Notes: generated by a model from the sequence alone, not told the origin. 64,000 bases of DNA from Dipteris shenzhenensis (GCA_047967505.1 CM106538.1); one strand, 5' to 3'; counted from the first letter of the stretch, positions 7,333 through 30,000 are shown. Made by a program: numbers and translations.

Positions 7333-7393
7333 GGGATTGAACAGATATCAAACAGGGAGAATCGGACAGGGCACAAAGAAAGGCTGGCAGGAA

Positions 7394-7715
7394 GTACGGA
7401 TGCTGGGATGAAGCACTGTACGGACACAACAAAGAAACTGACAGAAACTGTACGGACAGATTAAGAGATTGCAAGAAGGACCGACAGGCTGTACGGGATC
7501 ACTGACAGGCTGTACGGGACAACAGACAGTCTGTACGGAAGAGTTAACGACTGTACGGATTGATTAAACGGGAAAAAGACGGACGGACTGTATGGGCTTT
7601 AGGAAGGAAAACTGCAGGTAAGAACTGACGTGCAGGGTTGAAAGGATCGGCGATGATACGGTAATCTGACGCAGAATCCGTACGGGAACCGTACGACGGC
7701 CGTACGATGGTACGG
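7394..7715 (-). promoter_or_regulatory. Cluster of 11 GTACG cores (mostly CCGTAC on the element sense strand) in the LINE-A 5' UTR
   Basis: GTACG at 7394, 7418, 7450, 7491, 7512, 7533, 7553, 7680, 7691, 7702 and 7710. The regulatory role is inferred. Confidence 0.5.
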
Positions 7716-7770
7716 ACAAAAAGATGGGCGCCAAACAACGACGGGCGACGCTGACCAGCAATCACGATCG

Positions 7771-7863
7771 ACGCTCACCGTCACAGACCGGCAGCCAACT
7801 CTCGTCGAGGCTCACACCACGCTCACCGTCACACACCGGCAGCCAACTCTCGTCGAGGCTCAC
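7771..7863. repeat. 48-bp tandem duplication in the LINE-A 5' UTR
   Basis: ACGCTCACCGTCACA(G/C)ACCGGCAGCCAACTCTCGTCGAGGCTCAC starts at 7771 and 7819. Confidence 0.9.
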
Positions 7864-8599
7864 CCTGTCACCACACACACACGTGATCGACGCACACACA
7901 CACACCACACAGCTCCGTCGATCACACCCTCCACACACACACACCTACTCCTTCTTTCACACACACACACACATGTATGTATACATACATACATAGTCAT
8001 CTATCAACTCAAGGATGGCTTAAGAATCTATAAAGTGTACATGATGGTGACTCTATGGATGGACTTGACAATGATACCTAAGCATCTGAAGATACGTCTT
8101 TAGGTTAGCTCGAGCTGATCATGAAACATGCAAAGCCATGCCTAAACGTGCAAGACTTGTGGATGATTGGACTTGAATTCGAGGACGCCGTCAATTTTCC
8201 TTGCTACAAGAGTAAGCCCACAATGGGTCATCGGGAGGGGGTCTTCAGATAGATGCTCGATAATTTCAAGCCAATCGTCACTCAATGCATTTCAGTTTTG
8301 TTTGATTAAATTTCAATGTTTTCATAGGATAATTACCCCGGATGGACATTTCTCACCTTGAATAGGTCATATGTAGCAAGTTTTATACGTGAGGAGATTC
8401 AAGCATTATTCTAGGTCATATCTCTTTATCCATGACTTCAAAGATCTCTTGGCAATGATCATGATTATAAGCAACTCTTCTCCAACAATGTTCATGATGT
8501 AGATTTCTACTTTGAGCTGACGGCAATGATATCTAGTTATATACGTGTGTGTTAGCAATAGTTTGATGCACATGGTCAAGTCATAGCACAGAGTGATAT

Positions 8600-8930
8600 G
8601 TCAAGCTGTGACCTTATGTATTGAGCTAGGTGTGTCACTGTGTATCTTAGTGATAGGGTCCATAGGCATGAGCTCGATCTTAATACAATACTACTCTACT
8701 TTTTTTGGGTCATGTGTATTGAATTTGGTGTGTCACATTGTCAAGCTATGAGCTTATGTATTGAGCTAGGTATATCACCTTTGTATCTTAGTAACAGGGC
8801 ACGTAGGCATGATGCAATACTAGTCTACTTTTTTTGGGCTATATATATTGAATTTGGTGTGTCGCTTTGTTTCTACGCAATAGGGCCCGTAGTCATAAAC
8901 TTGACCTTGATACAATACTAGTCTCTAGTT
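8600..8930. repeat. Diverged ~140-bp tandem repeat (2 copies plus a partial copy)
   Basis: GTCAAGCT..TTATGTATTGAGCTAGGT...ATTGAATTTGGTGTGTC repeated at ~8600 and ~8740. Confidence 0.7.
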
Positions 8931-11047
8931 TTTTGTTAGTCTTTGTATTGCTCAAATTGGTCAATTGTCTTTCGGAGTATTTGATTGAGTTCTTTGTATG
9001 TTGACCTCAAATTTTCAACACATTGCATTTACTTTATTGTTTGGCAAGTATGGTGTATGACAATTGAAAGCCACACGTGTTAGTATGCTCATCCATGCAT
9101 TATGGATGATGAATTCAAGTAAAATAAATTTATGGGAATCATGCCGTGCATATTGTTATGGAGCAGAAACATTTGACAATTTTAACAGTTAATTCAGATG
9201 ATGATCATAGTGATCATCGAATACGTTTTCTACATATCTTCAATAGTATTTTCATATGCTCTAGCACATCGCACAATTTTTGACTTGTCGATATGATTTT
9301 ATAGTTCTTTGGTAGTGCTTTGTTCTCCGTGCTTGGAGAAACTACATGGTCTAAATGCTCAGCCTTGTGTAGGTGACCACATAAAATTTTGAGTTTGAGG
9401 GCTTGCGCTACTTACGTAGCTCATGGTAATTTGTGGACGTGGCTCTGTGTGAGCAATAATTAGCATATGATAGTTTGCTGTGGACATCTCCTATGTGGTG
9501 GATCTGCCTATACTCGTGCGGAAATTTTTTGTTTGCACCACTCGAGTTTGCAGGTTTGTGACCACCTCGTTCATCAAACACTCAAGTAGGGTCTTAAGGG
9601 CACGTATCATCTGCTTGATGTTTTCTCTATGCTTTTTACCTACTCTGTTCAAGACGGGGATTGTTGGTTATTAGCATATTGTAAACCTCTTATGGAGGCT
9701 GTGCTTTTGTTTGGTTGGGTGGCCATGCATAAGGCGCTTACCGTGGATTCAGCATATTTCACCTTGGATTGGTCATATCCAGCACGCTTGGGATACGTCA
9801 GGGATTCATGCTTTATCCCAGGGCTCACACTTGCCCATGTATTCCTCTGTGACTGCAGCAATCTTCTGGCAATGATTGTGATAATGGGCGGCATGTGGAT
9901 TTCATCTTTCAGCTGATGGCATCGATATCTAGCTATATAAGTGTGGTGTGTCAAAGATAGTCAATGGCAAACACTCCATGCTGCCCGTCTATCACGATTC
10001 AGACCAGCCTGCCATCTCGCCACTTTTGCCTATGAACAGCGGCCTTTTTGCTGCCTTTCCAATCACGCTCAGACAGGCCAAGCCCTGCCCTCAGATTGTA
10101 CGCAGCACATAATGCAATTTCAATGCAGGAGATAGGGCCAGGTTCCACGCAATCTGCCCTCTTCTGCAAATCGCCTCTGCCATGCCTCAATCAGCCTTGA
10201 AAGTCTCGCCATGAGCCTCTTTTTGGTTCACCATTCAACGTGGACTTGCACAGACAATCGATGGACTTCCGGACAAGAGATTTTCAGGCCTTGCTATGCA
10301 ACTAATTGGCAAAACTGATCTATGCCAGGTGGATTCTTTCCATTCTCTTTTTCTTTCATATTGATATTTGCTGCTCATTATCAAATTACAGCCAATGAAA
10401 GCCCTTCCTTTAAAACATGGAAACCCCTGGTAATGCCCCAGTACCTTCAAGGTCACCACAGGCATCACCTATCACTCAATATTGTGTTCAGATTGCACAA
10501 CCAGTCCACTTTGGAGCCTTTACATCATGGGTCTCTTGTGTCACGTGCCCTTCCAGTGATTTAGACCACATCCTATATCTTCTGCGCGAGGCACCTCAAC
10601 TACACTACTTCCTTAGCGCAGTCCAAGTTGTGTTTCACGAGACACGAAGATACCCAGAACCCGATATTCCACACAAGTTCGCTGTCCATCTTTGGAGAGA
10701 CTTTTACCCCTTAGCTTCAGCATCTCCAAGGTACTCTCCACCTCCTTCAGCTCCCAGATATCCTCCTGAACAGGTTTCACCTTCTCCAAGACAGTATTTA
10801 CACTCTGAAGGCACTCCTTCTCCTCAATATCCTCCTCTTCCGACAGCAACTCCTTGCCCTTTCTCAAATCCGTGGACTCTGCAACCAACTCCTATGCTCT
10901 CACAAGTAGTAACACCCATTTCGGCATCACCAGTGTTACCTCCTTCAAGACCTCCTTTGCCAGATTTCCACGGGTGGTTCCATCCTACCTCGCCTACCAC
11001 ATCCAACATGAGCAATCTCAGGGAGCAGCCCAAATCTTCCTCCACGA

Positions 11048-12800
11048 ATGGTACAAACTAGAGCGCAATCTCGTGCTCTTCTCACAAGGACCTCAGACAT
11101 GTCGAACCACTCGTGTCCAACCTCCCCGGAGATAAGCGACTCTAGTTCAAAAAAGATCCCTGAAGTGAATATACATGGTGAAGCATTACTTCAACTTCAG
11201 ATTTCTCAACTTCAAGACAGTATTTCTGATTTGGTCCAGAAAGTTCAACAACTCCAAGATTCTCGTAGTACCACACATACAGAGGATGACGTGATGCCAC
11301 CTAACGACTATGTGGACCCGATTCCACCAGAGGTATAAAACATTGAACTTTGTGCCCTCTGCTACTTACTTTAAGCTTCCAAAACTAAAAGACTTGACAT
11401 AAAACTACCGGAAGCCTACACTGGTCAATGGAATCGCCAAACAGTTGACCAGTGGCTCGCCAAAATGTGCATGTACTTTGAAACTATCAAACTCACTAAA
11501 GGCAAGAAGATTGCCTTGGCATCCTCCCTCCTCAAGGATACAGCTTTTCTTTGGTGGCAACGACACTTAAAGGACGGCAAAAGTGTGTTAACCTGGGAAC
11601 GTTTTGAACATGTGCTCTGTAAGCAGTTCATACCTGCCAATGTGGACTTCCAAGCACGTTCAAGACTTTGACAGTTGGAGCAAACGGGCTCCCTATCTTC
11701 CTACATCTCCCAGTTCACCACATTGGTGTTGGAGATCGATGGTTTGACTGATGATGATTGCCTCCATGGTTTTATCTCAGGCCTAAATCCCTTGTTACGC
11801 ATTGATGTCCTCAAAGCAAACATCACCACCACAACTGACGCTATTGCTTACGCAGAGCGCATTACAGATTTCCAAAACACACGAAAGCAGGGTTCTAACA
11901 AATCGCAGAACTCTACATCAGCCAAGGGTGCTCGCCCTCAGGATAACTCAAAGTTCAGAAAAAATTCAGATGATCAAGGTCCTCGACAGTCTCAAGATCC
12001 CAACAAGTCTCAGAAATCGTAAGCTGGATCCCAACAGAAGCACTCCTCTAAGGATCGTGCCTCTTCCTCTTCACAAAGCAATGATTGTCATCATCAACAC
12101 AAAGGTGCCGCCTCTGACAAGAAGAACAGCTCTAGCACAAAAGGACTTTGTACCATCTGCACTGGTGACCACAGATGGTTTGATTGTCCAAAGCGACCCA
12201 AGCAAAATTCAAATATGGAACCTAGCACTTCCCAGACAGAAGATGCTGCTCCTGCACAAGACAAGAAAGGTAAAGCTGTTCAAATGGCAAATACCATCCA
12301 CATGAGCCTTGCCAGCAACCTTGAACCTTCCTTGGTCACTCAAGTACTTTGCATCCAAGGACACCGATCACTATCCTCATAGACAATGGCTGCTCTCATA
12401 ATTTCCTAGCTAGTTCTATGGTTGAAAGACTTCGGTTGACCACCAGTCCTAGCTCCATGGACTATCAGCTCGAACTCGCTAATGGAACTACCTTCTTCTG
12501 CAACACCAATGTCAAAAACCTGTCCTTTCGCATCCAACATTATACGAACAAGTTGAATTTTGACATCATGCCTCTTTCCTAATATGATGTCATCCTTGGA
12601 CAACAGTGACTCTACGACTATGACCCATCAATCAGTTTTCGCAACCATACTATCCAGTTTGTCCACCAGGGAAAACTTATCGAGCTAACTAGTTCTAGGG
12701 ACTCTCCTTCAACTCCAGCTGCCTCCGTCTTACAAGTAAAGAAGTGGATTCGTAAACGTCAAGTAAAGACTGCACTTCTCTTGGGCAGTTGAGGAGACAC
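11048..12800 (+). pseudogene. Gypsy gag and aspartic protease, with stops and frameshifts
   Basis: Gag-like AFLWWQ..TWERF..QTGSLSSYISQF, knuckle CTICTGDHRWFDC and protease ILIDNGCSHNF. Confidence 0.8.
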
Positions 12801-14690: not shown

Positions 14691-14822
14691 TTTCCTCAGA
14701 ACCTACCCATCCGACCCAATCAGCCCCTTCAAGCTCCTTGATATATACAGTTTATGTCATGTTGAGCCGCAAGATCTTCTTTCAACAGCGTATCGCTCTT
14801 CTCTTTGGCGCAGACCGGCTTG

Positions 14823-15240: not shown

Positions 15241-16004
15241 TGACGATTACTTTTGTGGTCCATGTCTGGTGCTACTTGCAGAGAACTAGTTTCTTAAGTG
15301 CATCTCTTTTGAATGGGAACTTTTATGCTATTCCCATTGCTTTTGAATATTATGGTGTTCCAAGTTAATATTCTCATCTTATAGACTGCTATCCCAGCCA
15401 TAATCTTTCTTTGGTCCTTGGACCCATCCAAAGTCTCTCTCTAACGACAACTGGATTGGTTGGGGCTGCATAGTACGGGATGCACAGTCATACTTGGGAT
15501 TGACTAAGGTCAATAGGTACAAACAAGGAGACAAAGATTGATTTGTTTAGCCATGGATTTGGGCAAAGATGTCTTGTATAGTAATAGGTTGGATAACCTG
15601 CTATTCTGAAGGGATACTATATAGTGGATTGTTGGGTGCAGGAAGCAATGGAACGGGAGTGGAGTGCGGGAAGCAAACAAGCTGGAGCAAAACGTAGTAC
15701 TGCTCAAATGGACAAGAGGAAAATACAAAGCGCTAGAGCAAAACCTAGTACTATTGAAATGGATAAGAGGAAAATACAAAGGGTGGCCTATATGGCCCTC
15801 AAGTCAACCATATGGTTGACCAAAGAAGTCAACTCATAGAGTTGACCTGACCTACAAGGCTCATACCAGGGCTAAGTGCTAACAAACCCCCCTCCATGGT
15901 ATGGCTGAAGTATCCTGGAAATATCTCTGGAATACCTAGAAACTATATCATGGTTATTCGTCCCAAAGGGATATAGCAACCTATGATATGTATAGAGTGA
16001 TCCC

Positions 16005-18196
16005 TCACGTAACAAAAGGAGCCAAGTGTAAAGCATGTTGAAATTCCTGAAACTTGGGCCACGGTAAGCTTTTGTGAAAAGATCTACCAAGTTGTCCTCG
16101 GTGGGAACATAGGACAACTGGATGTCTCCACCAGACAGTTGCTCTCGAACTAGTCATAGTGGACTTCAATATGCTTTGTGCGCGCATGAAACACTGGGTT
16201 TCTAGCAAACGCCAAAGCACCTTGGCTGTCGGTGTAGATCGTAGTAGAGTTGGGCTGAATGATATCAAGATCTGCAAGTAATTTGCAAAGACAAACGCAC
16301 TCTATTGTAGCTATGAAAGCTGCTCTGCACTCAGCCTCACAACTGGATGTGGCAACTGTAGGCTACTTCTTGCTAAACCAAGAGATGCATGAAGCTCCAA
16401 GCATAAAACAGTTGCCATTGTGTGACACCCTAGTGTTGTAACATCCTGCCCAGTCGCTGTCTGTGAATGCATGCAAAACAAGTGGGGCCTTTGAACCATA
16501 GAGTAAACCCAAATGCTGCGTGGCCTTCAAGTATCGAAAGACTGGCCTCACTGCTTGCCAATGCTGCGTACTAGGCTTGTGCATGTACCCTGCTGAGCTG
16601 GGAAATGGCACACTGAAGATCAGGCCGGGTATGAAAAAGGCATATGAGGCAACCAACAGCCTGCGGATAAAGGGATGCATCAAATGGTGGACTTCCATTC
16701 TCGGAGGCGAAACGAAAGCCGGGCTCCAATGGAGTAGAAACTAGCTTGCAATCCTCGAACTAGAAGCGATCAAGGAGCTGTCCAATATACTTGGACTGAC
16801 TCGTCATTATACCCCCCTCAACATATGCAAACTGTATGCCCAAATAATAGTGCAACTGGCCCATATCTGTCATGGCAAAAGACTGCTGTAAATCAGCATT
16901 GAAATCTGCAATTTGTTCCATATCTGACCAAGTGATGAGCATGTCATCAACATATAAAATCAGAATTAAAAATTCTGATGCACTCTTTCAGACATAAAGA
17001 GCGGCCTCGGTTGGGCTATTCTGAAAGCCACGGGCTGTCAAAAATGCATGTGTATCTTCATATACCATGCCCGGGGTGCCTGCTTCAAGCCATAGAGGGA
17101 TTTTCTAAGCCGGCAAACCATATTTTCAGAACCTAATTGTTCAAAACCAGGTGGCTGAGTGACATAGACCTCTTCCTGAAGATCACCATGAAGGAAGGCA
17201 ATCTTGATGTCCAGTTGATGAGCCTCCCAATGCCGATGAGATGCCATAGCAATAACACACCTGATAGTAGTAATGAGTGAGGTGGGAGCAAAGGTCTCCT
17301 CAAAGTCAATGCCGTGCTGCTGTGCATATCCCTTTGCAACCAAGCGGGCTTTGAGGCAGTTAACACTGCCATCAGCTTTCCTTTTCACCTTGTAGACCCA
17401 CTTTGTGCCAATGGCATGCTTGCCTACTGGCAAGTCACACAACTCCCAAGTGTTGTTTGCATGAATGGATTCAAGCTCAGCCTTCATGGCATCCATCCAT
17501 TCCTTGCTGTCAAAGGCATCCTTGTGACATAAAGGTTCCTCATTGCAAGCAGTAGCAACCAAAGCTACAGCCAAATACCATGCATCTGTTTATGCGCGCC
17601 TCTAGTGTGGGCTGGCAAAGGCTCAGCTTGTTTGTCGTCCCTAAGTGTGTCCAAAAGCCATCTCGGGACTGATTTTTGCTGTTTAATGACAGCACTCTCC
17701 TGTGCAACTGCCTGCTCAATAGCATGATCATCAACTAAGGGCATATCAAGCTGAGCAAGAGCTATTGGAGGAGGGTGTGCACAGGTAGAAGTGTATGGCA
17801 CAACACTATGCACTGGCTGCTCCGGATCTGTAGGTGACTGAAAGAGAGGCAACAATGTGTCAGACATATGAGGAATCAACAGTAGGCTGTTTTTTGCATT
17901 CCAGCCAAGGTAAAGGCACGTTTTCAGCGAATACAGCATCCCTACTGACAATGACCTTGCCCGTGCTGGGCTGATACAACCTGTATCCCTTGCTCTCTAC
18001 GCTATAACCAATGGATATGCATTTTACAGCTTTGTCTTCAAGCTTGTGCCTCAGCTGAGATGGCACATGAGCATAAGCCAATGACCCGAAAACCCGCATC
18101 TCAAAAATTTCAGGTTTGCGACTGTGCCATGCCTTGTAAGGTGTGATAGTCTTCAATGCCTTTGTGGGTGCCCGATTGAGCACATAGTTGGAGCAC
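16005..18196 (-). pseudogene. Copia-A integrase C-terminal part, RT and RNase H
   Basis: [54 protein letters not shown] and SWFSKK, with frameshifts. Confidence 0.9.
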
Positions 18197-18698
18197 GTGA
18201 CTGTTGGAATCGGAGTCCTAGTGTGTGTGGTCCTAGTGTGTGTAGTCCTAGTGTGGTCCTAGAGTCTTAGGAATGTCCTACAGTTGTGTGAGTGTGAAGA
18301 GTCTTGAGGCCACTTGCGCCACCTCATGTGATTCCTCACCTAGATTATAGGATCTAGATTCTCTTGTGTGTGACCTCATCTATGAGGTGCCTGTAAGGCT
18401 TGCCCAGCCTATAAAAGAGGCTATGTACTTGCTGTGATAAAACAATCAACATCAGTTTATGCCTCAGTCCTTGTCTTCAATCATGTGATGAGTGTCTCTC
18501 ACCCTCTCCCCATTTTCAACAAATGGTATCAGAGCTGGTTCATTCAGCCTGTCATCTACTCCTCATGGAGGGTTTCTAGATTTCATCACGAGATCTGAGT
18601 CAGCCTCCCTCGCAATGAAGCGCCTTGCCCATCCTTCATCGCCACTCTTCTGCTGCTCCCGCTTCTGCTCTTTCTGCTGCGCCACTCTTCTTCTGCTA

Positions 18699-18833
18699 AG
18701 CCCGTACCTGCCGTACAACAGCCCGTACCTGCTGTACATCAGCCCGTACCTGCCGTACATCAGCCCGTACCTGTCATACAACAGCCCGTACCTGTCGTAC
18801 ATCAGCCCGTACCTGTCGTACAACAGCCCATAC
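18699..18833 (+). repeat. 21-bp tandem repeat (6 copies plus a partial copy), consensus AGCCCGTACCTG(C/T)CGTACA(A/T)C
   Basis: Read directly. Lies in the 5' leader just after the PBS. Confidence 0.95.
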
Positions 18834-19100
18834 AGCCTACCCGCCGCCTGCAATCCACGTTGTCCACGCTGATACTGCTGCTGTGGCGCCGTACAACTTG
18901 ATCTCTACGCTACGCCATCCTGCAAATCTCTGCTAGTCATCTGCTGCACCTCTCTACCCACGCTGTTGCTCCTGCGCACCATATAGTCTCTGCTGCTGCT
19001 GAAGCGTGGTAAACCCGACGTGAACACCTGCTGCTCCGTCTTCTGCCCGAACCTGCTGCTCCCACGCAACTCGACCTGCGACGGCGCCAGCCATGGAGCT

Positions 19101-19154
19101 GACTTGACGACTGACGATCTGAGGGCTAACTTGACGACTGACGATCTGAGGGCT
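19101..19154 (+). repeat. 27-bp tandem duplication
   Basis: (G/A)ACTTGACGACTGACGATCTGAGGGCT x2. Confidence 0.85.
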
Positions 19155-19565
19155 GTGGCCATCAACTCACACAACTGATCTGAGTTATTGCTCTACACTG
19201 TTGATCTTCTTCGTTCGCCTCTCCCCTCTCCACATGAGCTCCATCGACCAGCAGACAGTCCGTCTGAGATATTTTAAGATTTTTGTCTCATTTTTGGGTG
19301 AATTTGTTGGGGCTTTTATGGTCTGAAGCTCCCCTAGTGTTGCTAGAACACTATGCTCTAGGAAATTTTGAAAAGCCCCAATTTTCTGCAAACCCTAATT
19401 TTTGCAGTAACCCTAATCCTAAAATTTAGGGCTTTTCTGTTCTATGTCTTCCTTTGGCATAATTGAAGCTTCTACCATGTAAAATTTGGGCCCTTTTTGA
19501 AATCTGAGTAAACATTGTAAGGGATTTAGACACTAGCTGTAATAACAGCTAAGACCTTCCCACCA

Positions 19566-20432
19566 ATGGATAGCATAAAAAACTCCTTGCTCATCGAGAA
19601 ATTCTCAGGGAACAATTTCCCAACTTGGCAGACAAAACTCCGGCTTCTTCTTATGCGAGAAGGGATATGGAATATCACCAATGGCAAGGAGCCAAAACCC
19701 CAAAGTGATGATGCTAGAATCAGTTGGTGGCAAAACCAAAATGATAAAGCAATGGCTATCATTGGCCTAGCTTTAGCTGACAACCTTATCCACCATGTGG
19801 ATTTTGATAAGACAGCAAACGACGTTTGGGAAAAGTTAGAGAATTTGTTTGGAAATAAGATCAATAATTCCAAAGTATTTCTCAAACAAAAACTCTTCAA
19901 GCTCAAGATGAAGGAAATTGAAACCCTCAATGAACACTTGAGCAATCTTGGGTCAATTCTCCAACAATTATCTGCCATCCGAGCCATTGTTGAAGATGAT
20001 GATCAAGTTGCTGTACTTCTCTCCAGTATTGAAGACATTTCCAAGTACAATGAGATCCTTGCTGTCCTAAGAGTCAGCCGCAATATGAGCTTTAAGGATA
20101 TGGTAGCTCATCTCATTGATGAGGACCGTAGGCTTACAGAGAAAGCAGAATCTCCCTTCGAATCTGGCAAAGCATTCTTTCTCAAGAAAAAGCCCAAGAA
20201 GAACGGAAAACCTCTTAAATGTAATTACTGTCAGAAACTTGGCCATCCAGAGGATCGTTGCTTCAAGAAAATGGCAAAGGTACAAGCCAAAGAACATGCC
20301 AATCTGGTTGCGGAGCAGAGCGAGGACGAAGACGATGAAACTACACCTTCTGGACCTGAGGAACAAGCCTGCACTGCTGCTATTTCTGGTCTATCCCTCC
20401 ATGAGGTGATAGATGAAGAGTGGGCTTTCTAG
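19566..20432 (+). CDS. gag: Intact copia-type Gag (288 aa) with CCHC zinc knuckle; no pol
   Basis: EKFSGNNFPTWQ, TANDVWEKLENLF, VAVLLSSI and CNYCQKLGHPEDRC. Ends EEWAF*. Confidence 0.9.
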   Translation: MDSIKNSLLIEKFSGNNFPTWQTKLRLLLMREGIWNITNGKEPKPQSDDARISWWQNQNDKAMAIIGLALADNLIHHVDFDKTANDVWEKLENLFGNKINNSKVFLKQKLFKLKMKEIETLNEHLSNLGSILQQLSAIRAIVEDDDQVAVLLSSIEDISKYNEILAVLRVSRNMSFKDMVAHLIDEDRRLTEKAESPFESGKAFFLKKKPKKNGKPLKCNYCQKLGHPEDRCFKKMAKVQAKEHANLVAEQSEDEDDETTPSGPEEQACTAAISGLSLHEVIDEEWAF

Positions 20433-21130
20433 AGTCATGTGTGTTAGGTACTCTGCCTTGGGTAGTCTCCCTAAAATGTTGTAATAATTTGTCATTTTGT
20501 GTGCCTTGTCCTATAAAAGGCTCCACTTACTTCCATGTACCCAGTTAGGAGACAGGGGGGGGTTGTTATGTCTTTCCTTTATCAGGCCTGGCCGAGTTCC
20601 AGGATGTTGGTGTACTCCCTCGACCTATAAGTTGGTCATGCATCCATGCTCAGATTTCAGTCTCTGATCATGTTGACACCTAAGCCATGAGAGTGCTTGG
20701 TTCAACCTCTGAATTATGCTCAGCTGTTAGCCTCTGAGATTGCCTGGGATGCACAGTCTGGATGATGTCATCGTCTCTCACCCTAGCTCCGAGGGGGGGT
20801 TTGTTGGAATCGGAGTCCTAGTGTGTGTGGTCCTAGTGTGTGTAGTCCTAGTGTGTGTGGTCCTAGAGTCTTAGGAATCTCCTACAGTTGTGTGAGTGTG
20901 AAGAGTCTTGAGGCCACTTGTGCCACCTCATGTGATTCCTCACCTAGATTATAGGATCTAGATTCTCTTGTGTGTGACCTCATCTATGAGGTGTCTGTAA
21001 GGCTTGCCCAGCCTATAAAAGAGGCTATGTACTTGCTGTGATAAAACAATCAACATCAGTTTATGCCTCAGTCCTTGTCTTCAATCATGTGATGAGTGTC
21101 TCTCACCCTCTCCCCATTTTCAACAGTGAC

Positions 21131-23177
21131 AGCATCCAACCAAAATTTATTTGGCAAAGACTTTCCTTTGAGCATGCACCTGCCCATTTCCATCTCTGAC
21201 CGATTTTTCCTCTCTGCCAGCCTGTTCTTCTACGGAGTACAAGGCACTGTACATTGATGATAATACCCCGAGCTGCCAAAAAATCAGAGAATTCACGGGA
21301 CATGTGCTCTCCCCCCCTGTCAGTGCGTAGAGTAAGGAGCTTGTTCCCTGATTCATTTTCAGCCATGGCAAGCCACATCAGATTTGGCCTTCATGCAATA
21401 TATCCAAGCAAATCTAGTACAGTCATCCACAAAGGTAGAAAAGTAAAGGTAGCCCCCAAGGATGTTGTTTGCATTGGCCAGCACACATCACTATGCACAA
21501 GGTGAAGCTTCCTGGATGCAACAACCATCCCATCCTTTGGAAATGAGAAACGATGAATTTTGCCCAACAAGCATCCCTCACAAACATGTTTGGTGCATGC
21601 ATGGGTAGCAACCACCATGTTTTGTGAATGCATTTTAACCAAGCTTCTGTAATTGAGGTGACCCAACCTCGCATGCCATAAGTGGGAATCTGAAATTACA
21701 GATTCAGCCACCAAATTTGCCTCTATAGCAGGCTGTTTGTCATAAACATCAAGATGATATAGCCTAGAAGAAAGTGACCCAGTAAGTACTATGATGTCAT
21801 CATACCGGTTGTCATACACGGCACATCGATAACCATCAAAGAGAACCCGAAAGCCATTCAAGGATATGGCTGCAATGGAGATGAGGTTCTTTTTATACCT
21901 GGGACAAACAAAACATCCATAAGCATGATCGTATCACCTGAAACTGAAGTGACCTTGACGTGGCCAATCCCTTTCACAGGATATGATGCATTGTTGGCAC
22001 ATGTCACTATGCCACCATGTGGAGCAGCCCCCAATGTCTGAAAGAGTGATCTACAAGAAGTGATGTGCTGTCGAAGCACCACTATCGAAGCACCAATCTG
22101 ACTTAAAATCTAAGACAGACAAGGCTGTAGCATGCTTCTCTGGATGGTACTAGCATGTCACCGTGAAAGCCCACTCATGGTGAGCAATGTTTGCTGCCTC
22201 ATGACCATGATCTGGGGCAGCAACAATAGCAGTGACAGCAAGTCCCTTTTGCTGCTTTTTCTTTTTAGGAGCGATGCACTTGTGACATTCAAAAATGTCA
22301 TGTCCTAGCTTCCGGCAGTAATTACGACATTTGATGTTTTTCTTCTTTGCATCAGACGGGGCAGAATTAGATGAGTGTCCAGCAGTAGATGAGCCTCCAG
22401 AAGGCTTGGGTTTGCTGTAATTTTGCCCGTTCTTTCCCTTATTTTTGTGATTAGCAACAAAATCCTGATTTGCAATTTGAGAAGTAGCACGATTTGTGCG
22501 ACTCTGCTCTTCCTGCAGGAGAAAGGAAACAACTTGGTCGAAAGTATGAGTGTTGAGATTGCCCATGGCAACCAACCTCAATGTAGTAGCAAACCCTTGG
22601 TAGGACTCAGGAAGTCCATTGAGTGTCGTGGACACTACCTGAGCATCTGAAATAATTTCATCCACGTTAATGAGCTGCTCTTGAAATCCTTGATTTTTGT
22701 GATGTATGCATCCATGCTGTCCCCCTCTTCCATTTTCACATTCTCCAATTGCCTGCGTAAGAAAGCAACACATGCCTCATTGCGAACCTGGTAAAGGTGA
22801 GCCAAGATGTCCGACGCAGCCTTTGATAATTTGCAAGACTGAATGTGAGGAATGATATGTCTCTTGACTGAAAAAGCAATGATAAAATGTGCTTGGGCAT
22901 CTCTACCATCACATTTGGCCTGTTTTGGTGTAGGAGGTGTGGCTGGAGTAGTAGTAGATCCAGAGGTGGCTGTAACAACTGCACCAGAGCGGTGGCAGTA
23001 GATCCAGAAGTGGCTGTAGCAGTAGCAGAAGTGGATGCCACAGAGGAAGGTCGAAGATCCGATCCTGAGACAATACCCAACTAGCAAATGTTTCACCATG
23101 TATGACCACATGGGATAATTGGGTCCATCGAGCTTGTCCTCAGCTGAGAACATGCTCATCCAATCGTTGCTTCCCAT
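21131..23177 (-). pseudogene. Copia-A gag, protease and integrase N-terminal part
   Basis: KLDGPNYPMWS, TTLNGLPESY, knuckle ..YCRKLGHDIFEC, WCFDSG, LWHARLGHLNY, CEGC, LVHSDVC and LRTDRGGE, with many frameshifts. Confidence 0.88.
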
Positions 23178-25709
23178 GGCAAAAATAAATCCCTAAAGGA
23201 AAAACATGCGCTCAAGAATAGCCTCAAGGCTTTCATTGCAAAATGAGCTGGCTGTCCAAAAATGACAGCAAATGTCAAGCAGTGACAAACCAAAAATTGA
23301 CTGCTCAAACAATGAGCTAAATGCACGTGCTGTCCCCAAAAATATGTCGTGCAAAACAATATTTGTCCAGTCAAAGGACCCTTCTGCCAAAGATAGCTGT
23401 CTTGCAAAAATATCAGCCCAAAACAAGGGGCAAATGTCTGCAAATGTATCCAATGATCAATTGAGCTGTAAATGTCCCAGATGGAGGCTGCGTGCCTCAA
23501 ATCTGACAAGACAACAAGCCCAAATCAAGGGGCAAATGCATAATATACCCAAATTGAGGTGAATAAAGCAAATGCCACTGCAATGGACAGCAAATTTGGC
23601 AAAAGCCCCAAAATCTAAGAGGTCAAATATTCCAAAAAGAGGGCAAATTGGAAAAAGGCCCAAATTGTGCTACAAGTTGCAAATGTGATTCAATGTGCTG
23701 CAATTCCAAGATAATGTCAATGTTCCTACTTGTCAATGTCTACCAAATGCCCAAAATTGGTTGTACCAAGCCAATGTCACTGCAAATTTCAACAAAATTG
23801 ACAAAACCCCCAATTTCTGGAAGGGCAAAGCTGTCAAATTTGGGGCAAATGACCAAAAGCCCCAAATTTTGCTGAAATAAGGCAAATGTGACAAAATAAC
23901 CTGCAAATCTAAAAATATCCCACAATCTGTCAGCAATAGATCCGAAATCCCCAGCGTCGGAGTGGAAAGGAAGTCAAAATAGGGCAAATACTAGAAAAGC
24001 CCCAAAATGTGACCAAAAGGAGCAAATGTCACTGTAAAATCTGCAAATGTGACACAAAAGTCCCAATCTCTAGAGAAAAATCACCTCAATGTCACTGTAA
24101 TGTGTGCAAACGTGACATAAAAGACGGTGAAAAGCTTCAAATCCAACTATACCAGGCAGATCAGAGTCACGAGGGAGAGAATCCCAGCCAAATGGTGCTA
24201 GAGAAGATTGGAGCACCTAGAGGAAGGCCCGAATGACTCAAAACAGTCCAAAACTGAGCAAAAAACCTCTAAAAACTATTCAAAAATGCTCGAAATCAAC
24301 TTCTGACAAGTCGTACGGATTCCTAGCAGCATTGCGCACCTATACGTACGGGCGTACGGATGAATTTTTTTCGACCGAAATGGTGTGGGACAGGGTCATT
24401 TGTTTGCGGGCAGCTCAAAAATTTCAAAAAACATTGAAATTGGACCTCAAAAAATAAAAAACAGTCACTGGACTGTTTTTCTACTCAAAAAACAAGTTTT
24501 AGGCGATGAAATGAGGCACCGGACTGAGCTGAAGCAAAATGGCAGGTAGGAGCAATGAGAGAGCACGAGGGAAGGCAGGTAGGAGCAAGAGAACCTACTA
24601 TGATACCACTGTTGGGTGCAGGAAGCAATGGAACGGGAGTGGAGTGTAGGAAGCAAACAACAAGCTGAAGCAAAACGTAGTACTACTCAAATGGATAAGA
24701 GGAAAATACAAAGGATGGCCTATATGGCCCCCAAGTCAGCCCTATGGTTGACCAGAGAAGTCAACTCATAGAGTTGACTTGACCTACAAGGCTAATACCA
24801 GGACTAAGCGCTAACATGGATGCTTGATATTCTAAAGTGAGGCTTCACTTGGGTAGTGGCAAGCTAGTAAAGGAACTCAGTAAGTCCATCTTGTGCTTGG
24901 ATTGAGCACGAGATGGGAACACAAGACAACTTTTAAACTTTATGTTCATGTGAACATAGAGAAATTTTGGGTTCTCAAAGAGAGAATTCATGATTATCAG
25001 AAAAGCAACATCAGAAGTAATCCTTCTGGTAGCTTTTGGGTAAACTCTGGTATCCTTGTGGACAGGGTTTTGGGATGTCGGATGACATCAATCTACCTAG
25101 TGGACACTTGGCTAAGTTTCCACCCGCACCTCTCCCTCAAGGCCAAGGCTATGAAAGACACGTCTGGGAACCCTTTACAAGTGAGAGGGAGAGAAGAGAA
25201 AATTTGGAACATGATTTTCTTGAGATCTTAAATTGGATCTCAATAGACCTTAACTTGAAACTTGGATCTTGCCATCATAGATGACCCAAATACTAACATC
25301 CGGATGGGTGGTCTGCAGTAGTATGGGATGCTACAGATGCTATTGTGGGTGCATCAGAATTCCTTAGTGACAGGGAATTCAAAACCTCTACCATTGGGCC
25401 GTCGGTTGGTAGATGACGGTTCATTCTTTGGTGATAAGGATCACCTGAGGAGTTCAGGATTGTAACTCCTAGTTGCCAGATACCATGGTCTATCAAGCAT
25501 TCTGCCATTGGTGAGTGGGTGTCGCCAAACCTACCCAATGGGTTACCCTAAGGAAACTGGGTAATGGATGACCCTAGACTTGCTGACGAGCGAGTCGGTC
25601 ACTGTGGACTTTCGGATGGAAGGTTGTGGGCTGTAAATTGGTTACGGCTTAAGTTCGTTTTCCTATCCTGACATATATTAGTATAAGTCTTATTTTAAGG
25701 GAAGGAGGA

Positions 25710-26289: not shown

Positions 26290-26764
26290 GTTAGGCTCTA
26301 GCAAGCTAGCCTCAATTATCTTGACAGATGTAGTGTACAAGCAAACTCACAAAACCTAGCACATCATTATAGAGTCATACAATTTTATTAAAACGCCTTT
26401 TACTCAACATATAAACGTGGCTCTATTTGGGCCATGTCATGAACTTGTGATACATCCAATTGCCTTTCCTCCTGATGAAGAGTGTTTCAACCATATGCTT
26501 CAATAGTGAAGAATTTCCTTTTGGCTTCAGCACGACTGTTCAAGTAGGCAAAGATAAATATCCTTTGGCTCTTCTTGCCAGGTTTCTATCTTGAAGCAAT
26601 TTGATAGCTGACCGGCAACAATACTCTACTTCTCAGCTTCAATACTAGAAAGTTGTTCTTCTCCATAAATTGCGAACGCAACACACTTGACTTAGATAAG
26701 GATGCAACAATAGGATACCTAGATACAACCTCTGTACAAACATCATGCAATTGGCCATTCTTAC

Positions 26765-26961
26765 CTCTCTCTCTCTCTCTCTCTTCCTTCCTTCCTTCCA
26801 TGACAAAACTTTGAATACCATATGCATAGCCATAATCAAGTGCATAACATTTATTGAAAGCTCTCTCTCTCTCTCTCTCTCTCTTCCTTCCTTCCTCCCA
26901 TGACAAAGGTTTGAATACCATATGCATAACCATAATCAAGTGCATAACATTTATTGAAAGC

Positions 26962-26964
<3 letters not shown>
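26765..26964. repeat. ~100-bp tandem duplication, each copy starting with (CT)n
   Basis: (CT)n-TCCTTCC..CCATGACAAA..TTTGAATACCATATGCATA..ATTTATTGAAAG x2. Confidence 0.88.
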
Positions 26965-27029
<65 letters not shown>

Positions 27030-27031
<2 letters not shown>

Positions 27032-30000
27032 CCCATGTCAACCTCGATCTAGGGAGCCCTGCTATTGCTTGCTTTGAGCCCAGCTGATCTTCTTCAGCAT
27101 CTTCAGCCCTCTTACATAATCCGTACTATCCGTACAAACTGTACGGACAGTTTTCGTCCGTCCCTACAGCCCTGAACCCTGACGCAGATCTCGAAAATTG
27201 AAATTAGCCCGCCACCCTGCTCTTCTCGCCTTCTCGTCGTTTCCTGCTCGTCTTTTGTTGTTCATATCGTTGCATCGCCTCCAACATTTCCTTAGCTTTG
27301 TCTTTGTTTAACCCTCTTCTCCTTTCATAACCTAGTTGCATTGAATCTCTTCCTTCTTAATACTCAGACTTTTGCTGTGTTTTTTTGGTACTGGTTTACG
27401 TGGGCGTGTGGATATCCCTTACGCTGTCCATATCCTCTTCTATGCTTTAGTTCTCCTCCTTCACCTCTTCTCTGATGGATTCTGACCCTCAACTCAAGCA
27501 TTATTTGCACAGGGATCGCTCTCTTGATCCCAAATGAAGACTTACAGAAGCTCCTGCAAAGGATAATCTGGATGCACGCTATGTCTTTGATATGCTTCAT
27601 GAGGAATTTTTTCAAAGTAGACACACATGGAGCGTTCCGGAAGTCAAGTACAAATTGAAGCTTCCCTCTTTGGTAAATCCTCTGAAAAAGATATCACAGA
27701 CTGCTGTAATTTTGTTTTTTCCAGGAAGAATCCCTGCTGCTAATGATGTAGCGTAGTGGATAAAGGCCTTGTTGGGTGGATGTTTTGTTGAGGGAGTATA
27801 GTTTGCCTCAAGGGGCTTTTATGAAGTACATCTTGCTGATGTCACTTACAAGTAGAAGTTATTGGAATTCTCCCCTTTGTTTTATGGCAGACGATTGCCC
27901 AATATGGGTGGAATTGGTTGATTTTCCAAACTATATGCGTGAGGAGTTACCTGGACTCGCTGCATCTTTGGGGCAAGTGATATGTCCTCGTAGACCCACT
28001 GGTAATCGCAATAGACTTTGCATTTTATGGAACACTGACAAGCCTACACCTCCTTCCATTGCAGTTGAGGTGGAGGAGGTTCGTATGGGAGAGAGAGAAA
28101 TATTTTGAGTTAAAGTGGGGGGTCTTTCGAAGACTTGTAGAGATTCTCTGAACCAAAGGTGCCATCAAACTGTCTTTTTATGTGACCATACTCGCCATTA
28201 TAATTGACAAACTTCATAGACTAGAGGTAGTCAATAGAGCGAGCGGGCGGAGCTTGCTTTGCATGTCACAAGTTTGGTCACTTGGCATCAGAGTGTCCTA
28301 CTGTTCTTCATAGACCTCCTCCAACAGCTATGCCTCAAAATAATGCTCAGCCTTTGCCTTGCAATGGAGGGCAGCTTCCCAACATTTCAACCAATACTAC
28401 TCTGGATAAGGCATCTAAAGCAGCAAATGAGCATTTGATAAAGGTAAACACTCCTACAAAGGCAAAGGACAAAGGTAAAGAGAATCTAAAGGATTATGAT
28501 AATTCAGAGAATGAAGGCTGGCAGCAACTTAAAAAGGTTATTTCTTTAAGGTAGAGACCCTTGCAATCCAGACACTGGGATGCCTCTTCTCCCACTCCTG
28601 GTCAAGGCTTCCAGTTCTCAAGTCTCCCATGCCACTAGATTATGGACAGATGTCCTCAAAAAAGGTATTCCAATCTTGATCTAGCTGATGCTGCTCCTCC
28701 TTATGAGCATGAGTCTCAACAAGAGGCAGAGGACATGGCAATGACTTGATGCTTTCTCACATTTCTTGTATACAGCTTTGGAATGTCTTTCTTACAATGT
28801 TCAAGGCCTCTGCAATGTAAATAAATGGAGGCTACTTTGGCATTATGTACATACTATGATCCAGATGTGGTTTGTTTGCAAGAACATAATCAGCATGATA
28901 TGGCTGGACAACAAGGACACTTTGCAGGATATTACATTTTTTATGCAAGCAATTTGAGTTTTTCAGGAGTATGCATCTTAGTCAAGCATGACTTGCATCC
29001 TTTGCTGGCTTTTAATGATCAGCATGGTAGATGGATGGTGTTACAATGCATGGTTGAAGAGGATATCTATGAGATTGCTTTTGTGTATGCCTCTCAAACT
29101 TTTGCTTTGTGTGGATAGATGTGGGATGCCATCAATCATTATCCTTGGAAGTCTAATGCCTTCGTATGTGGAGATTTCAATAACTCCCCTCATCCACAGG
29201 ATAATACTACTCACAAGTCTCATATGATACCTTCTGAATTTCAGAAATGGGAGGAGATGCAAAGTACTCTTAATGCAGAAAATTTGTGGAAAATCTATCA
29301 GCCTCAAACACTGGGATTCACATATCATCATAATGCACTTTCCCATTACTGGGCGAGATTGGACAGATGGTACCTATTGAATGCGCAGCAGTTTGATGCT
29401 TTCACATGTAATTTGTGGGTTGACTACTCTCTTTAACTGTGGAATCATGCGCCCTTGTGGTTGGACTTATGTTTTGCTCAAACAATAAATTATTTACAGC
29501 CTTCAAGTGCTACAATGCTTCATGTGAATAATGCCTACCTTTCACACAAGCAATTTCAGGAAGCCATCTTACTTGCCATCCGGCCTCTTCCGTTGCATGC
29601 TTAAGAGGATTTGGATTTTGCTTGGGAGAGTTTCGTATGCCGCATTCAAATGATCATTAAGGATTATGGCAGGTGGGACTCAAAATGATCAAAGAAAGCT
29701 TCGTAAATGGCAAGTTAGAGCCCGGATTAAGCCCTTGTTGGACAAAGACTGTTCTTCAAAATCCTTTTTTAAGAGTTTGCATGCAGGAAGACAAAGACAA
29801 TCAATTCAAAGGATTAAAAAACAGGATGGTTGCTGGACACAAACTCAATCCCAACTGGAGGCTGAATGTGTACAGCATTTCAAAAACATTTTCTCGCAGC
29901 CTTTGCCTTCCTCTTATCAGTTCCAAGCTCAGCGCAGATTTTTGGATCGTTTCAGCCCAATTATTGATTCAAAGGTTGCTGTAGATCTTGAAAAGCATTT

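What the first reader, a model, noticed from the sequence alone, without database searches (positions are those of the whole stretch)
7394..27148. CCGTAC clusters, partly 21-bp phased, in the 5' leaders of four retroelements from both LINE and LTR classes
Seen: the LINE-A 5' UTR has 11 GTACG cores, four of them at 21/21/20-bp spacing (sense unit CCCGTACAGCCTGTC). The gag-only LTR element has a 21-bp x6 array AGCCCGTACCTGTCGTACATC after its PBS. The Copia-A leader has three GTACGG at 24314-24359, and the LINE-B 5' UTR has three at 27121-27146. They mostly read CCGTAC on the element sense strand, and I did not notice such clusters elsewhere in the window. Known: GTAC, often in CCGTAC/CGTAC context, is the SBP-box/SPL binding core, and 21 bp is two helical turns. 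Tandem short motifs are also the targets of VANC anti-silencing proteins in Arabidopsis. Inference: different TE classes have converged on, or exchanged, one host-factor or anti-silencing binding module.
Basis: partly seen in the sequence, partly recalled or inferred. Interest (0 to 1): 0.75.

Follow-up and report, generated by a model that had tools for sequence, protein, structure and literature searches.

The report
CCGTAC motif clusters in retroelement leaders
Three unrelated plant retrotransposon lineages in this window each carry a tight cluster of the same short DNA word, CCGTAC, in the untranslated stretch before their first gene; it most likely works as a transcription-factor landing pad, but no binding was tested.

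Summary
CCGTAC occurs 29 times against 3.8 expected. It is the commonest of 593 CpG hexamers. 27 of the 29 copies lie in four clusters covering about 590 bp.

Each cluster sits in the transcribed 5' leader of a retroelement:
- LINE-A, full length with target-site duplications.
- LINE-B, also full length.
- A 2.9-kb gag-only LTR element (TR-GAG type).
- A nested Copia.

CCGTAC is the only sense-strand hexamer present at least twice in all four leaders. None of 3000 random segment sets shared a CpG hexamer in this way.

- The two LINEs are relatives (70-80% identity in blastn-aligned ORF stretches), so there are three independent lineages, not four.
- The 21-bp phasing is simply tandem duplication.
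- A related gag-only copy in another run lacks the array.
- No sequence exchange is detectable.
- The VANC idea has no support.

Best reading (0.45): clusters of sites for one DNA-binding factor, acting downstream of the transcription start. The motif matches the published SBP/SPL site CCGTAC(A/G) in 18 of 27 copies. Binding, expression and genome-wide enrichment could not be tested because no genome is held. This is a new variant of a known kind, of moderate interest.

The parts
2176..7949 (-). LINE-A, a full-length L1-type element
   Evidence: A 16-bp target-site duplication lies at 2160-2175 and 7950-7965, with the poly-A tail next to 2176. Pfam hits: ORF1 DUF4283 plus zf-CCHC, then Exo_endo_phos, RVT_1 and zf-RVT. 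ORF2 is split over three frames.
7324..7949 (-). LINE-A 5' UTR, about 626 nt, CpG-island-like
   Evidence: The ORF1 ATG is at 7323-7321. CpG o/e is 1.21 for 7348-7760, against 0.17 in ORF1 and 0.30 in ORF2. It also holds a 48-bp tandem repeat at 7771-7882.
7678..7715 (-). LINE-A upstream (alpha) cluster: 5 CCGTAC words on 4 GTAC cores, three of them within the palindrome CGTACG; +235 to +272 from the element's 5' end
   Evidence: GTAC cores are spaced 11, 11 and 8 bp. The RNA hairpin has z -2.1. It aligns with the LINE-B cluster.
7394..7558 (-). LINE-A downstream (beta) cluster: 7 sense CCGTAC, 6 of them as CCGTACAG; +392 to +556 from the 5' end. A decayed copy, CCATAC, lies at 7590.
   Evidence: TRF finds period 21 with 2.7 copies at 7483-7538.
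18202..21124 (+). Gag-only LTR retrotransposon (TR-GAG type), young, inserted inside Copia-A
   Evidence: LTRs at about 18202-18521 and 20806-21124; the 271-nt repeat pair 18251-18521 / 20855-21125 is 99% identical. The 5-bp TSD is GTGAC on both flanks, and a purine tract precedes the 3' LTR. PBS at 18524-18535. The gag ORF 19566-20432 carries Retrotran_gag_2 and a CCHC knuckle, and there is no pol.
18699..18833 (+). 21-bp x 6.4 tandem array with two CCGTAC-type words per unit, 164 nt after the PBS; one more CCGTAC at 18889
   Evidence: Decayed copies: CTGTAC at 18732 and CCATAC at 18828. A related contig in run X2 joins 18696 to 18937 with 25 other letters between, so it lacks the array. Run X1 has a 'goes back' joint from 18838 to 18672.
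15630..24950 (-). Copia-A, an older Copia element interrupted by the gag-only element
   Evidence: LTR pieces 24610-24816 match 15630-15884 at about 92%. An 8-nt PBS match lies at 24601-24608. Pfam hits on the - strand: RVT_2, SH3_retrovirus, gag_pre-integrs and Retrotran_gag_2. The outer LTR end near 24950 is approximate.
24313..24359 (-). Copia-A leader cluster: 3 sense CCGTAC, each extended to CCGTACG; about 237-283 nt after the PBS
   Evidence: It holds 6 of the 21 CpGs in the 1072-nt leader. RNA fold z is +0.55.
27030..31777 (+). LINE-B, a degenerate full-length relative of LINE-A
   Evidence: Poly-A at 31766-31777, with (TG)n(GA)n on both flanks. Pfam hits: zf-CCHC_2 and Exo_endo_phos. 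It shares 70-80% nucleotide identity with LINE-A in the blastn-aligned ORF stretches.
27121..27146 (+). LINE-B 5' UTR cluster: 2 sense and 1 antisense CCGTAC at 9-bp spacing; +92 to +117 from the 5' end. It includes the only exact TNCGTACAA match found in any cluster.
   Evidence: The ORF1 ATG is at 27475. UTR CpG o/e is 0.84 against 0.28 in the body.
48549..49100 (+). Copia-B leader, a negative control with no CCGTAC. Its sister Copia-C leader (58391-59000) also has none.
   Evidence: PBS at 48537 and 58379. Both leaders have 0 CCGTAC. The two elements are 91-97% identical.

Best explanation
The clusters are groups of binding sites for one sequence-specific DNA-binding factor. They lie inside the transcribed 5' leader, 90-560 nt downstream of the element's 5' end or 160-280 nt after the PBS. 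Because they are transcribed, they are copied with the RNA and travel with every new insertion. They act as a downstream or internal enhancer/promoter module whose strength depends on copy number, and tandem duplication changes that number. The most likely binder is an SBP-box (SPL) factor. The CpG inside the site would make binding depend on methylation state.

Shown here: the enrichment, the position in leaders, the presence in three unrelated lineages, retention between two diverged LINEs, CpG-rich leaders inside CpG-poor elements, and copy-number variation among relatives.

Inferred, not shown: that the motif acts on DNA, that a protein binds it, that the protein is an SPL, and that it raises transcription.

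Of my 0.45 for a DNA-level factor site, about 0.3 is for SPL specifically.
For: - Enrichment is extreme and specific. CCGTACR occurs 19 times against 1.65 expected, and 18 of the 19 lie in the clusters.
- All four clusters lie in 5' leaders. The six leaders cover 4368 of 64000 bases, so the odds are about 3e-4 for three independent hits; this is my own post hoc calculation.
- The elements are complete at their 5' ends, so the clusters are internal to them. TSDs support this for LINE-A and the gag-only element; microsatellite flanks and a poly-A tail support it for LINE-B.
- The gag-only element and Copia-A share no tblastx hit with each other, and LINEs are a different class.
- LINE-A and LINE-B UTRs are not alignable by blastn, although their ORFs are 70-80% identical in the blastn-aligned stretches. 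Both still keep a cluster, and MAFFT aligns the two.
- Leaders are CpG-rich (o/e 0.46-1.21) while element bodies and LTRs are CpG-poor (0.12-0.37). This holds even in the gag-only element with 99%-identical LTRs, so the CpG words persist in the propagating lineage.
- GTAC is the most leader-enriched of the 16 palindromic tetramers, at 3.5-fold.
- Sites are packed 8-12 bp apart in all four clusters.
- The motif equals the published SBP site CCGTAC(A/G) (passages); 18 of 27 clustered copies match it.
- Precedent exists. Plant enhancers downstream of the TSS act in a dose-dependent way through a short motif, GATC (PMC11525189, abstract and passages). Arabidopsis TEs exploit that motif in a methylation-dependent way (PMC13547354, passages).
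Against: - No binding, expression, chromatin or methylation data could be obtained. No genome is held, and no RNA run was listed among the holders.
- Only one 64-kb window and three lineages were examined.
- The longer SBP consensus TNCGTACAA is matched exactly by only 1 clustered site, out of 4 exact matches in the window. T precedes CCGTAC in 13 of 27 copies.
- In the gag-only array, 6 of 9 copies are followed by C rather than A/G.
- The sense-strand bias (23 of 27; 16 of 20 after collapsing) is not required of an enhancer site with a palindromic core and fits an RNA-level role as well.
- Two Copia leaders of similar CpG content lack the motif.
- A related gag-only copy lacks the whole array, so the array is dispensable for that copy's existence.
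- Another factor could be the binder. A deep-learning model assigns CCGTAC to bHLH28 (PMC13234004, passage).
Confidence: 0.45

Rival explanations
1. RNA-level signal. The repeated CCGUAC / CGUACG words act in the leader RNA as binding sites for the element's own CCHC zinc-knuckle protein (Gag or LINE ORF1p) or for a host RNA-binding protein. Alternatively they act as self-complementary contacts for RNA dimerisation or packaging, since the PBS-to-gag leader is where retroviral packaging signals lie.
For: - Sense-strand bias: 23 of 27 copies, or 16 of 20 after collapsing tandem copies.
- The position between PBS and gag in both LTR elements.
- Both LINE ORF1 and the gag proteins carry CCHC knuckles.
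- CGTACG and CCGTACGG are palindromes.
- The LINE-A upstream cluster and the LINE-B cluster fold better than shuffles, with z -2.1 and -2.4.
- That retroviral packaging signals lie in this leader is recalled knowledge, not from a call.
Against: - There is no common structure. Fold z-scores are -1.1 and -1.7 for the two arrays and +0.55 for Copia-A.
- There is no Rfam match.
- LINEs are not known to dimerise or to use leader packaging signals (recalled).
- Unrelated Gag and ORF1 proteins would have to recognise the same word.
- One of the three LINE-B sites is antisense.
Confidence: 0.15
2. No function. Untranslated regions of retroelements are hot spots for short tandem duplication, and CpG-rich leaders happen to carry this word. 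The shared hexamer reflects amplification of chance seeds plus descent (for the two LINEs).
For: - Two of the four clusters are largely tandem arrays.
- The same leaders hold other tandem repeats: 48 bp at 7771-7882 and 27 bp at 19098-19154.
- Array length varies, and the array is absent from a related copy.
- CpG-decayed copies lie inside the arrays.
- The motif is absent from the Copia-B/C leaders.
Against: - Tandem duplication cannot explain the non-tandem copies: 7394, 7418, 7450, the LINE-A upstream cluster, Copia-A and LINE-B.
- It does not explain why three unrelated lineages amplified the same word.
- 0 of 3000 random four-segment sets shared a CpG hexamer at 2 or more copies each.
- CCGTAC is the only such hexamer in the four leaders.
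- The motif is kept between LINE-A and LINE-B in UTRs that are otherwise diverged.
Confidence: 0.2
3. Epigenetic targeting or anti-silencing. The motif clusters are recognised by a silencing or anti-silencing factor, or the 21-bp repeats feed small-RNA pathways.
For: - The arrays are tandem repeats of short motifs with a 21-bp period.
- Leaders are CpG-rich islands inside CpG-poor elements, which could reflect local hypomethylation.
Against: - VANC proteins are encoded by, and act on, Mutator-like DNA transposons (recalled). The carriers here are LINE and Copia elements.
- No such gene appeared among the 56 ORFs scanned.
- Only two of the four clusters show a 21-bp period.
- No small-RNA or methylation data were available.
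Confidence: 0.05
4. The gag-only array is coding. An 85-codon upstream ORF (18615-18872) reads the 21-bp units as a heptad repeat.
For: An ATG-started ORF runs through the whole array, and 21 is a multiple of 3.
Against: - Frames on both strands are open across the array, as expected for any stop-free repeat of period 21.
- There is no Pfam match.
- The ORF ends about 700 nt before gag and is not joined to it.
- The same word lies outside any long ORF in Copia-A and LINE-B.
- I did not search protein databases with this ORF.
Confidence: 0.02

Closest known systems
SBP-box / SPL transcription-factor binding site: GTAC core, CCGTAC(A/G), TNCGTACAA
   Same: The hexamer is identical. 18 of 27 clustered copies fit CCGTAC(A/G). 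There is one exact TNCGTACAA match in LINE-B. The carriers are plant-type elements beside a Streptophyta-like ABC transporter gene.
   Different: Known sites are described in host gene promoters. Here they form dense same-motif clusters in the transcribed leaders of retroelements. Binding was not tested. Most copies differ from the 9-nt consensus at one or more positions.
Dose-dependent GATC enhancer motif downstream of the TSS in plants, also exploited by Arabidopsis TEs (PMC11525189 and PMC13547354; abstract and passages read)
   Same: A short word with a 4-nt palindromic core accumulates within about 500 bp downstream of the transcription start. Copy number is the variable, and for TEs the effect depends on methylation.
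   Different: The word differs (GTAC, not GATC) and so does the presumed factor family (SBP, not GATA). GATC is only 1.6-fold enriched in these leaders, against 3.5-fold for GTAC. 'GTAC' does not occur in the main text of PMC11525189.
Sirevirus repeated palindromic motifs with a CGG-CCG signature (Bousios et al. 2010, PMC2829016; section 9 read)
   Same: Plant Copia elements carry 8-32 copies of a short CpG-bearing motif. The motif is shared by elements with little other similarity, and its clusters border CpG islands. A regulatory role was proposed but not tested.
   Different: Those motifs lie in the LTR upstream of the TATA box and before the env-like gene, not in the 5' leader. They are dyad-symmetric CGG...CCG words, none of which is CCGTAC, and they are specific to Sireviruses. 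Here LINEs carry the motif too.
Internal promoters and enhancers of retroelements: the LINE-1 5' UTR with host-factor sites, mouse L1 tandem monomers, and the Drosophila copia untranslated-leader enhancer with variable repeat number
   Same: The regulatory sites lie inside the transcribed 5' region, so they are inherited by new copies, and tandem copy number varies among copies. The copia leader enhancer is cited in PMC2829016's reference list and named in PMC2443393. The L1 details are recalled.
   Different: Those systems are in animals and use other motifs and factors. No plant LINE or Copia leader module of this kind turned up in my 10 literature searches.
TR-GAG non-autonomous LTR retrotransposons (name and definition recalled)
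   Same: The element at 18202-21124 has LTRs, a PBS, a purine tract, a TSD and a gag ORF only.
   Different: This classifies the carrier element, not the motif array.

Membership tests
SBP/SPL binding site | GTAC core | tested here: met
   All 27 clustered copies contain GTAC.
SBP/SPL binding site | Extended site CCGTAC(A/G), as given in PMC6508781 | tested here: met
   18 of 27 clustered copies match: LINE-A 10 of 12, gag-only 3 of 9, Copia-A 3 of 3, LINE-B 2 of 3. The window total is 19 against 1.65 expected.
SBP/SPL binding site | 9-nt consensus TNCGTACAA, as given in PMC10796333 | tested here: inconclusive
   Only 1 exact match lies in the clusters (27129), out of 4 in the window. 13 clustered sites match with one mismatch.
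SBP/SPL binding site | Bound by an SBP-domain protein | not testable with these tools
   This needs DAP-seq, EMSA or ChIP in the species.
VANC-type anti-silencing target | Motif arrays lie in non-coding parts of a Mutator-like (VANDAL) transposon that encodes the VANC protein (definition recalled) | tested here: not met
   The carriers are L1-type LINEs and Copia elements by Pfam. No Mutator-like or VANC-like hit appeared among the 56 ORFs scanned.
LINE internal (5' UTR) promoter module | Lies inside the element, downstream of its true 5' end | tested here: met
   The LINE-A TSD places the 5' end at 7949, with clusters at +235 to +556. The LINE-B 5' end is at 27030 and its cluster at +92 to +117.
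LINE internal (5' UTR) promoter module | Drives transcription | not testable with these tools
   No listed holder was on record as RNA. A reporter assay is needed.
Hypervariable tandem repeats in LTR-retrotransposon untranslated regions | Short tandem array in an untranslated region, with copy number varying among family members | tested here: met
   The 21-bp array has 6.4 copies. It is absent from an X2 contig, and X1 has a rearranged joint. This applies to the gag-only array and partly to LINE-A, but not to Copia-A or LINE-B.
Sirevirus palindromic repeated motifs | Dyad-symmetric CGG...CCG word clustered in the LTR upstream of the TATA box and/or before env | tested here: not met
   The clusters lie in leaders after the PBS, not in LTRs. 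The word differs from all 13 consensus motifs in Table 3 of PMC2829016.
TR-GAG element (carrier at 18202-21124) | LTRs, PBS, purine tract and TSD, with gag as the only ORF | tested here: met

The most novel reading that the evidence does not exclude
Unrelated retroelement lineages of a plant genome (an L1-type LINE clade, a gag-only LTR element and a Copia) have each independently built a 'GTAC box'. This would be a dose-adjustable cluster of SBP/SPL sites in the transcribed leader. It would tie their transcription to cells where SPL factors are active, such as adult-phase and reproductive meristems and sporogenous tissue, which is where new insertions become heritable. The CpG inside each site would make the switch sensitive to methylation. 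That would be a plant counterpart of animal retroelements that recruit germline or early-embryo factors, and a second downstream-of-TSS enhancer word beside GATC.
Probability: 0.25. Interest if true: 0.75.

Novelty: new variant of a known kind. Interest (0 to 1): 0.5.

Why it matters
If these clusters are real factor sites, they would show three things:
- Which host regulator plant LINEs and Copia elements use to be transcribed.
- That the control module lies downstream of the transcription start, where it is copied with the RNA.
- That different element classes converge on it.

That would give a simple sequence marker for transcription-competent copies, namely intact CCGTAC clusters in the leader. 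It would also give a testable link between developmental phase (the miR156/SPL pathway) and transposition.

If the motif proves not to be enriched genome-wide, this is a local curiosity produced by tandem duplication.

Tried and rejected
- **Whole-genome test.** Not possible; no genome is held.
- **Earlier scan notes.** Nothing by place, words or sequence.
- **Sequencing runs.** Only two small coded runs hold about 11-12% of the sampled words, and no listed holder is on record as RNA.
  - Laying contigs of 4 runs gave no cover of LINE-B and next to none of LINE-A: the 7300-7966 bin reads 0 in X1 and X3 and 0.26 and 0.24 in X2 and X5, with no piece listed over the clusters.
  - No listed piece covered the Copia-A cluster; 669 pieces were not shown.
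  - Nothing can therefore be said about conservation of the motif in other copies, except for the gag-only array joints.
- **Metagenome pattern scan** for three CCGTACAG words at 18-24 bp period.
  - They are unrelated short tandem arrays of every composition.
  - None has tblastn or blastn similarity to the window's elements or leaders.
  - My prior chance estimate (under 1 hit) was wrong, because tandem repeats are not independent draws. The scan is no test of the hypothesis.
- **Four viral-contig scans** with gag, LINE ORF1, Copia pol and LINE RT found no relatives.
- **Rfam.** No family in the window.
- **Bacterial-type promoter scan** of the LINE-A UTR. It is irrelevant to a plant and found nothing.
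- **Common captured insert or exchanged module.** Rejected; there is no blastn similarity among the leaders.
- **Helical phasing.** Rejected as the explanation of the 21-bp period.
- **miR156-like seed words** near LINE-A units. Seen by eye; only 8 nt match, too short for plant miRNA targeting. Not pursued.
- **Organism.** Not identified beyond plant-like.
- **Literature.** None returned a paper linking GTAC/SBP sites to retroelement leaders. Subscription journals and supplements were not seen. One paper reading failed on a term format and was not repeated.
- **Not done.** The uORF across the array was not searched against protein databases.

Full report
**1. The observation**

CCGTAC, counted on both strands, occurs 29 times in the 64-kb window. 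One hundred dinucleotide-preserving shuffles gave a mean of 3.80 and a maximum of 8. GTACG occurs 51 times against 15.6.

CCGTAC is the most frequent of the 593 strand-collapsed CpG-containing hexamers, in a window whose CpG o/e is only 0.35.

27 of the 29 copies lie in four clusters: 7394-7715, 18702-18894, 24313-24359 and 27121-27146. The other two are singletons at 3651 and 15473.

A scan that also accepted the CpG-decayed forms CTGTAC and CCATAC found no further dense cluster.

**2. What carries the clusters**

*LINE-A* (2176-7949, minus strand):
- It is a full-length L1-type element bounded by a 16-bp target-site duplication and a poly-A tail.
- Pfam finds ORF1 (DUF4283 plus CCHC), an endonuclease, RT and zf-RVT.
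- Its 626-nt 5' UTR holds an upstream cluster at +235 to +272 and a downstream cluster at +392 to +556.

*LINE-B* (27030-31777, plus strand):
- It has a poly-A tail and microsatellite flanks and degenerate ORFs.
- Its cluster lies at +92 to +117, ahead of the ORF1 ATG at 27475.

*The gag-only element* (18202-21124):
- It is a young non-autonomous LTR retrotransposon. Its LTRs are 99% identical and its 5-bp TSD is GTGAC.
- The PBS is at 18524 and the only ORF is a 288-codon gag.
- The 21-bp x 6.4 array starts 164 nt after the PBS.

*Copia-A* (minus strand):
- The gag-only element sits inside Copia-A, an older Copia whose LTR pieces are about 92% identical.
- Its three sites lie about 240-280 nt after its PBS.

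**3. How many independent cases**

LINE-A and LINE-B are relatives. They are colinear, with 70-80% nucleotide identity in the blastn-aligned ORF stretches. Their UTRs give no blastn hit, but a MAFFT alignment puts the LINE-B cluster on the LINE-A upstream cluster, with a similar stretch just downstream. I read that as descent with retention of the motif.

The gag-only element and Copia-A share no tblastx hit. None of the four leaders shares blastn similarity with another.

There are therefore three independent lineages, and no sign of an exchanged segment.

**4. Specificity**

- Among all sense-strand hexamers, CCGTAC is the only one present at least twice in each of the four leaders. No 7-mer or 8-mer qualifies.
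- In 3000 random sets of four window segments of the same lengths, 68 shared some hexamer in that way, mostly A/T-rich or low-complexity words. None shared a CpG-containing one.
- GTAC is the most leader-enriched of the 16 palindromic tetramers, at 3.5-fold. GATC is at 1.6-fold.
- The motif is not universal. The leaders of Copia-B and Copia-C, one family at 91-97% identity, have no copy.

**5. The 21-bp phase**

Both 21-bp series are local tandem duplications. Elsewhere GTAC cores are 8-12 bp apart (LINE-A upstream cluster, within the gag-only unit, Copia-A, LINE-B) or 20-41 bp apart. The common feature is tight packing, not a two-turn phase.

Contigs from a coded run (X2) include a related gag-only copy that joins 18696 to 18937 with 25 other letters between, so it lacks the array. 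Run X1 shows a 'goes back' joint inside the region. The array is therefore a labile, copy-number-variable feature.

**6. Context that bears on function**

The leaders are CpG-rich islands inside CpG-poor elements:

| Element | Leader / UTR CpG o/e | Rest of element CpG o/e |
|---|---|---|
| LINE-A | 1.21 | 0.17 (ORF1), 0.30 (ORF2) |
| LINE-B | 0.84 | 0.28 |
| Gag-only | 0.72 | 0.12 (LTR), 0.37 (gag) |
| Copia-A | 0.46 | 0.25-0.37 |

The gag-only insertion is very young, so its CpG-poor LTR and CpG-rich leader are properties of the propagating lineage, not of decay after insertion. That is what one expects if leader CpG words are kept by selection or lie in a hypomethylated stretch. The motif-free Copia-B leader shows the same contrast (0.61 against 0.23), so it is not specific to CCGTAC.

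CGTAC words hold 14 of 31, 11 of 44, 6 of 21 and 3 of 18 leader CpGs in the four elements.

**7. What the motif resembles**

Passages I read give three descriptions of the SBP site:
- The SBP-domain site as CCGTAC(A/G) (PMC6508781).
- TNCGTACAA with an essential GTAC core (PMC10796333).
- CCGTAC/GTACGG used as the 'SBP-box' in maize (PMC10165856).

CCGTACR occurs 19 times against 1.65 expected, and 18 of those are in the clusters. The 9-nt consensus is matched exactly only once in the clusters. T precedes the hexamer in 13 of 27 copies.

One modelling paper assigns CCGTAC to bHLH28 (PMC13234004), so SPL is the leading candidate but not the only one.

**8. Mechanism**

My best reading is a cluster of sites for one DNA-binding factor, acting downstream of the transcription start. 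LINEs must carry their promoter internally. In LTR elements a leader module is likewise copied with the RNA.

Plants are now known to use position-dependent enhancers downstream of the TSS, with a short motif (GATC) acting in a dose-dependent way within about 500 bp (PMC11525189). Arabidopsis TEs are reported to exploit that motif in a methylation-dependent way (PMC13547354).

The CCGTAC clusters fit this pattern with a different word. Tandem duplication would tune the dose, and the internal CpG would couple binding to methylation. None of these functional steps is shown here.

**9. Rivals**

- *RNA-level role* (packaging, dimerisation or protein binding). It is favoured by the sense bias (23 of 27; 16 of 20 after collapsing) and by the palindromic CGTACG forms. 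However, predicted folds are not consistent across the clusters, with z from -2.4 to +0.55, and Rfam finds nothing.
- *Neutral origin by tandem amplification.* It explains the arrays and their variability. It does not explain the non-tandem copies or the same word in three lineages.
- *VANC-like anti-silencing.* It fails its defining feature, because the carriers are not Mutator-like elements.
- *Coding reading of the gag-only array.* It is possible only as a uORF. It has no Pfam support, and I did not test it against protein databases.

**10. Limits**

- No genome is held, so the decisive test, position-specific enrichment across the TE library, could not be run.
- Public runs gave only sparse contigs, with no listed holder on record as RNA.
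- The metagenome pattern scan returned unrelated tandem arrays and is no test.
- Four viral-contig scans found no relatives.
- Ten literature searches found no report of GTAC/SBP clusters in retroelement leaders. That library lacks most subscription journals, and I saw no supplements.

**11. Verdict**

I rate it a new variant of a known kind (TE-borne factor-site clusters and downstream enhancer motifs). Interest is moderate at 0.5, because the pattern is striking and directly testable but rests on one window and has no functional data.

Noticed in passing
2160-2175 / 7950-7965; 26966-27029 / 31778-31800; 33632-33660: LINE-A, LINE-B and a third poly-A-ended sequence (poly-A at 33632-33639) are all followed by, or flanked with, (TG)n or (TG)n(GA)n microsatellite sequence. 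This could be a target-site preference of this LINE clade for TG/CA repeats, or microsatellites arising at LINE ends.
   Followed up: partly
45798-48183 and 53761-55243: Two very long degenerate GA/AG-rich simple-sequence tracts (2.4 kb and 1.5 kb, 72-73% matches) bracket Copia-B. A 100-N assembly gap lies at 45696-45795 just before the first tract.
   Followed up: no
15629 / 24836: A 3.8-kb contig from coded run X2 joins 15629 to 24836 with 43 other letters between. In that related genome the whole Copia-A, with its nested gag-only element, is absent or reduced. The flanks match at roughly 80-90%.
   Followed up: no
leaders against bodies of all retroelements in the window: 5' leaders and UTRs are CpG-rich (o/e 0.46-1.21), while LTRs and coding parts are CpG-poor (0.12-0.37). 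This includes the motif-free Copia-B (0.61 against 0.23). It looks like a general CpG-island-like leader feature in this genome.
   Followed up: partly
7771-7882; 19098-19154; 18214-18255 and 20815-20866: The same elements hold other short tandem repeats: a 48-bp x 2 repeat in the LINE-A UTR, a 27-bp x 2 repeat in the gag-only leader, and a 15-bp x 2.8-3.5 repeat at the start of both gag-only LTRs.
   Followed up: no
35052-37366 (-): Exons of a host ABC transporter gene (ABC_membrane plus ABC_tran, ABCC-like, nearest Atlas clusters mostly Streptophyta) lie between the retroelement nests.
   Followed up: no
56146-56586 (+): A fragment of a CACTA-type transposase (Transposase_21, E 8e-39) lies between the two Copia-B/C copies.
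   Followed up: no
metagenome loci L001, L008, L022, L025, L040, L052, L071, L076, L088, L099, L109: One recurrent 27-bp tandem repeat family containing GTACCGTACAG turns up in many contigs that share similar record-name prefixes. It is unrelated to the window and is probably a repeat of one host or symbiont genome.
   Followed up: no
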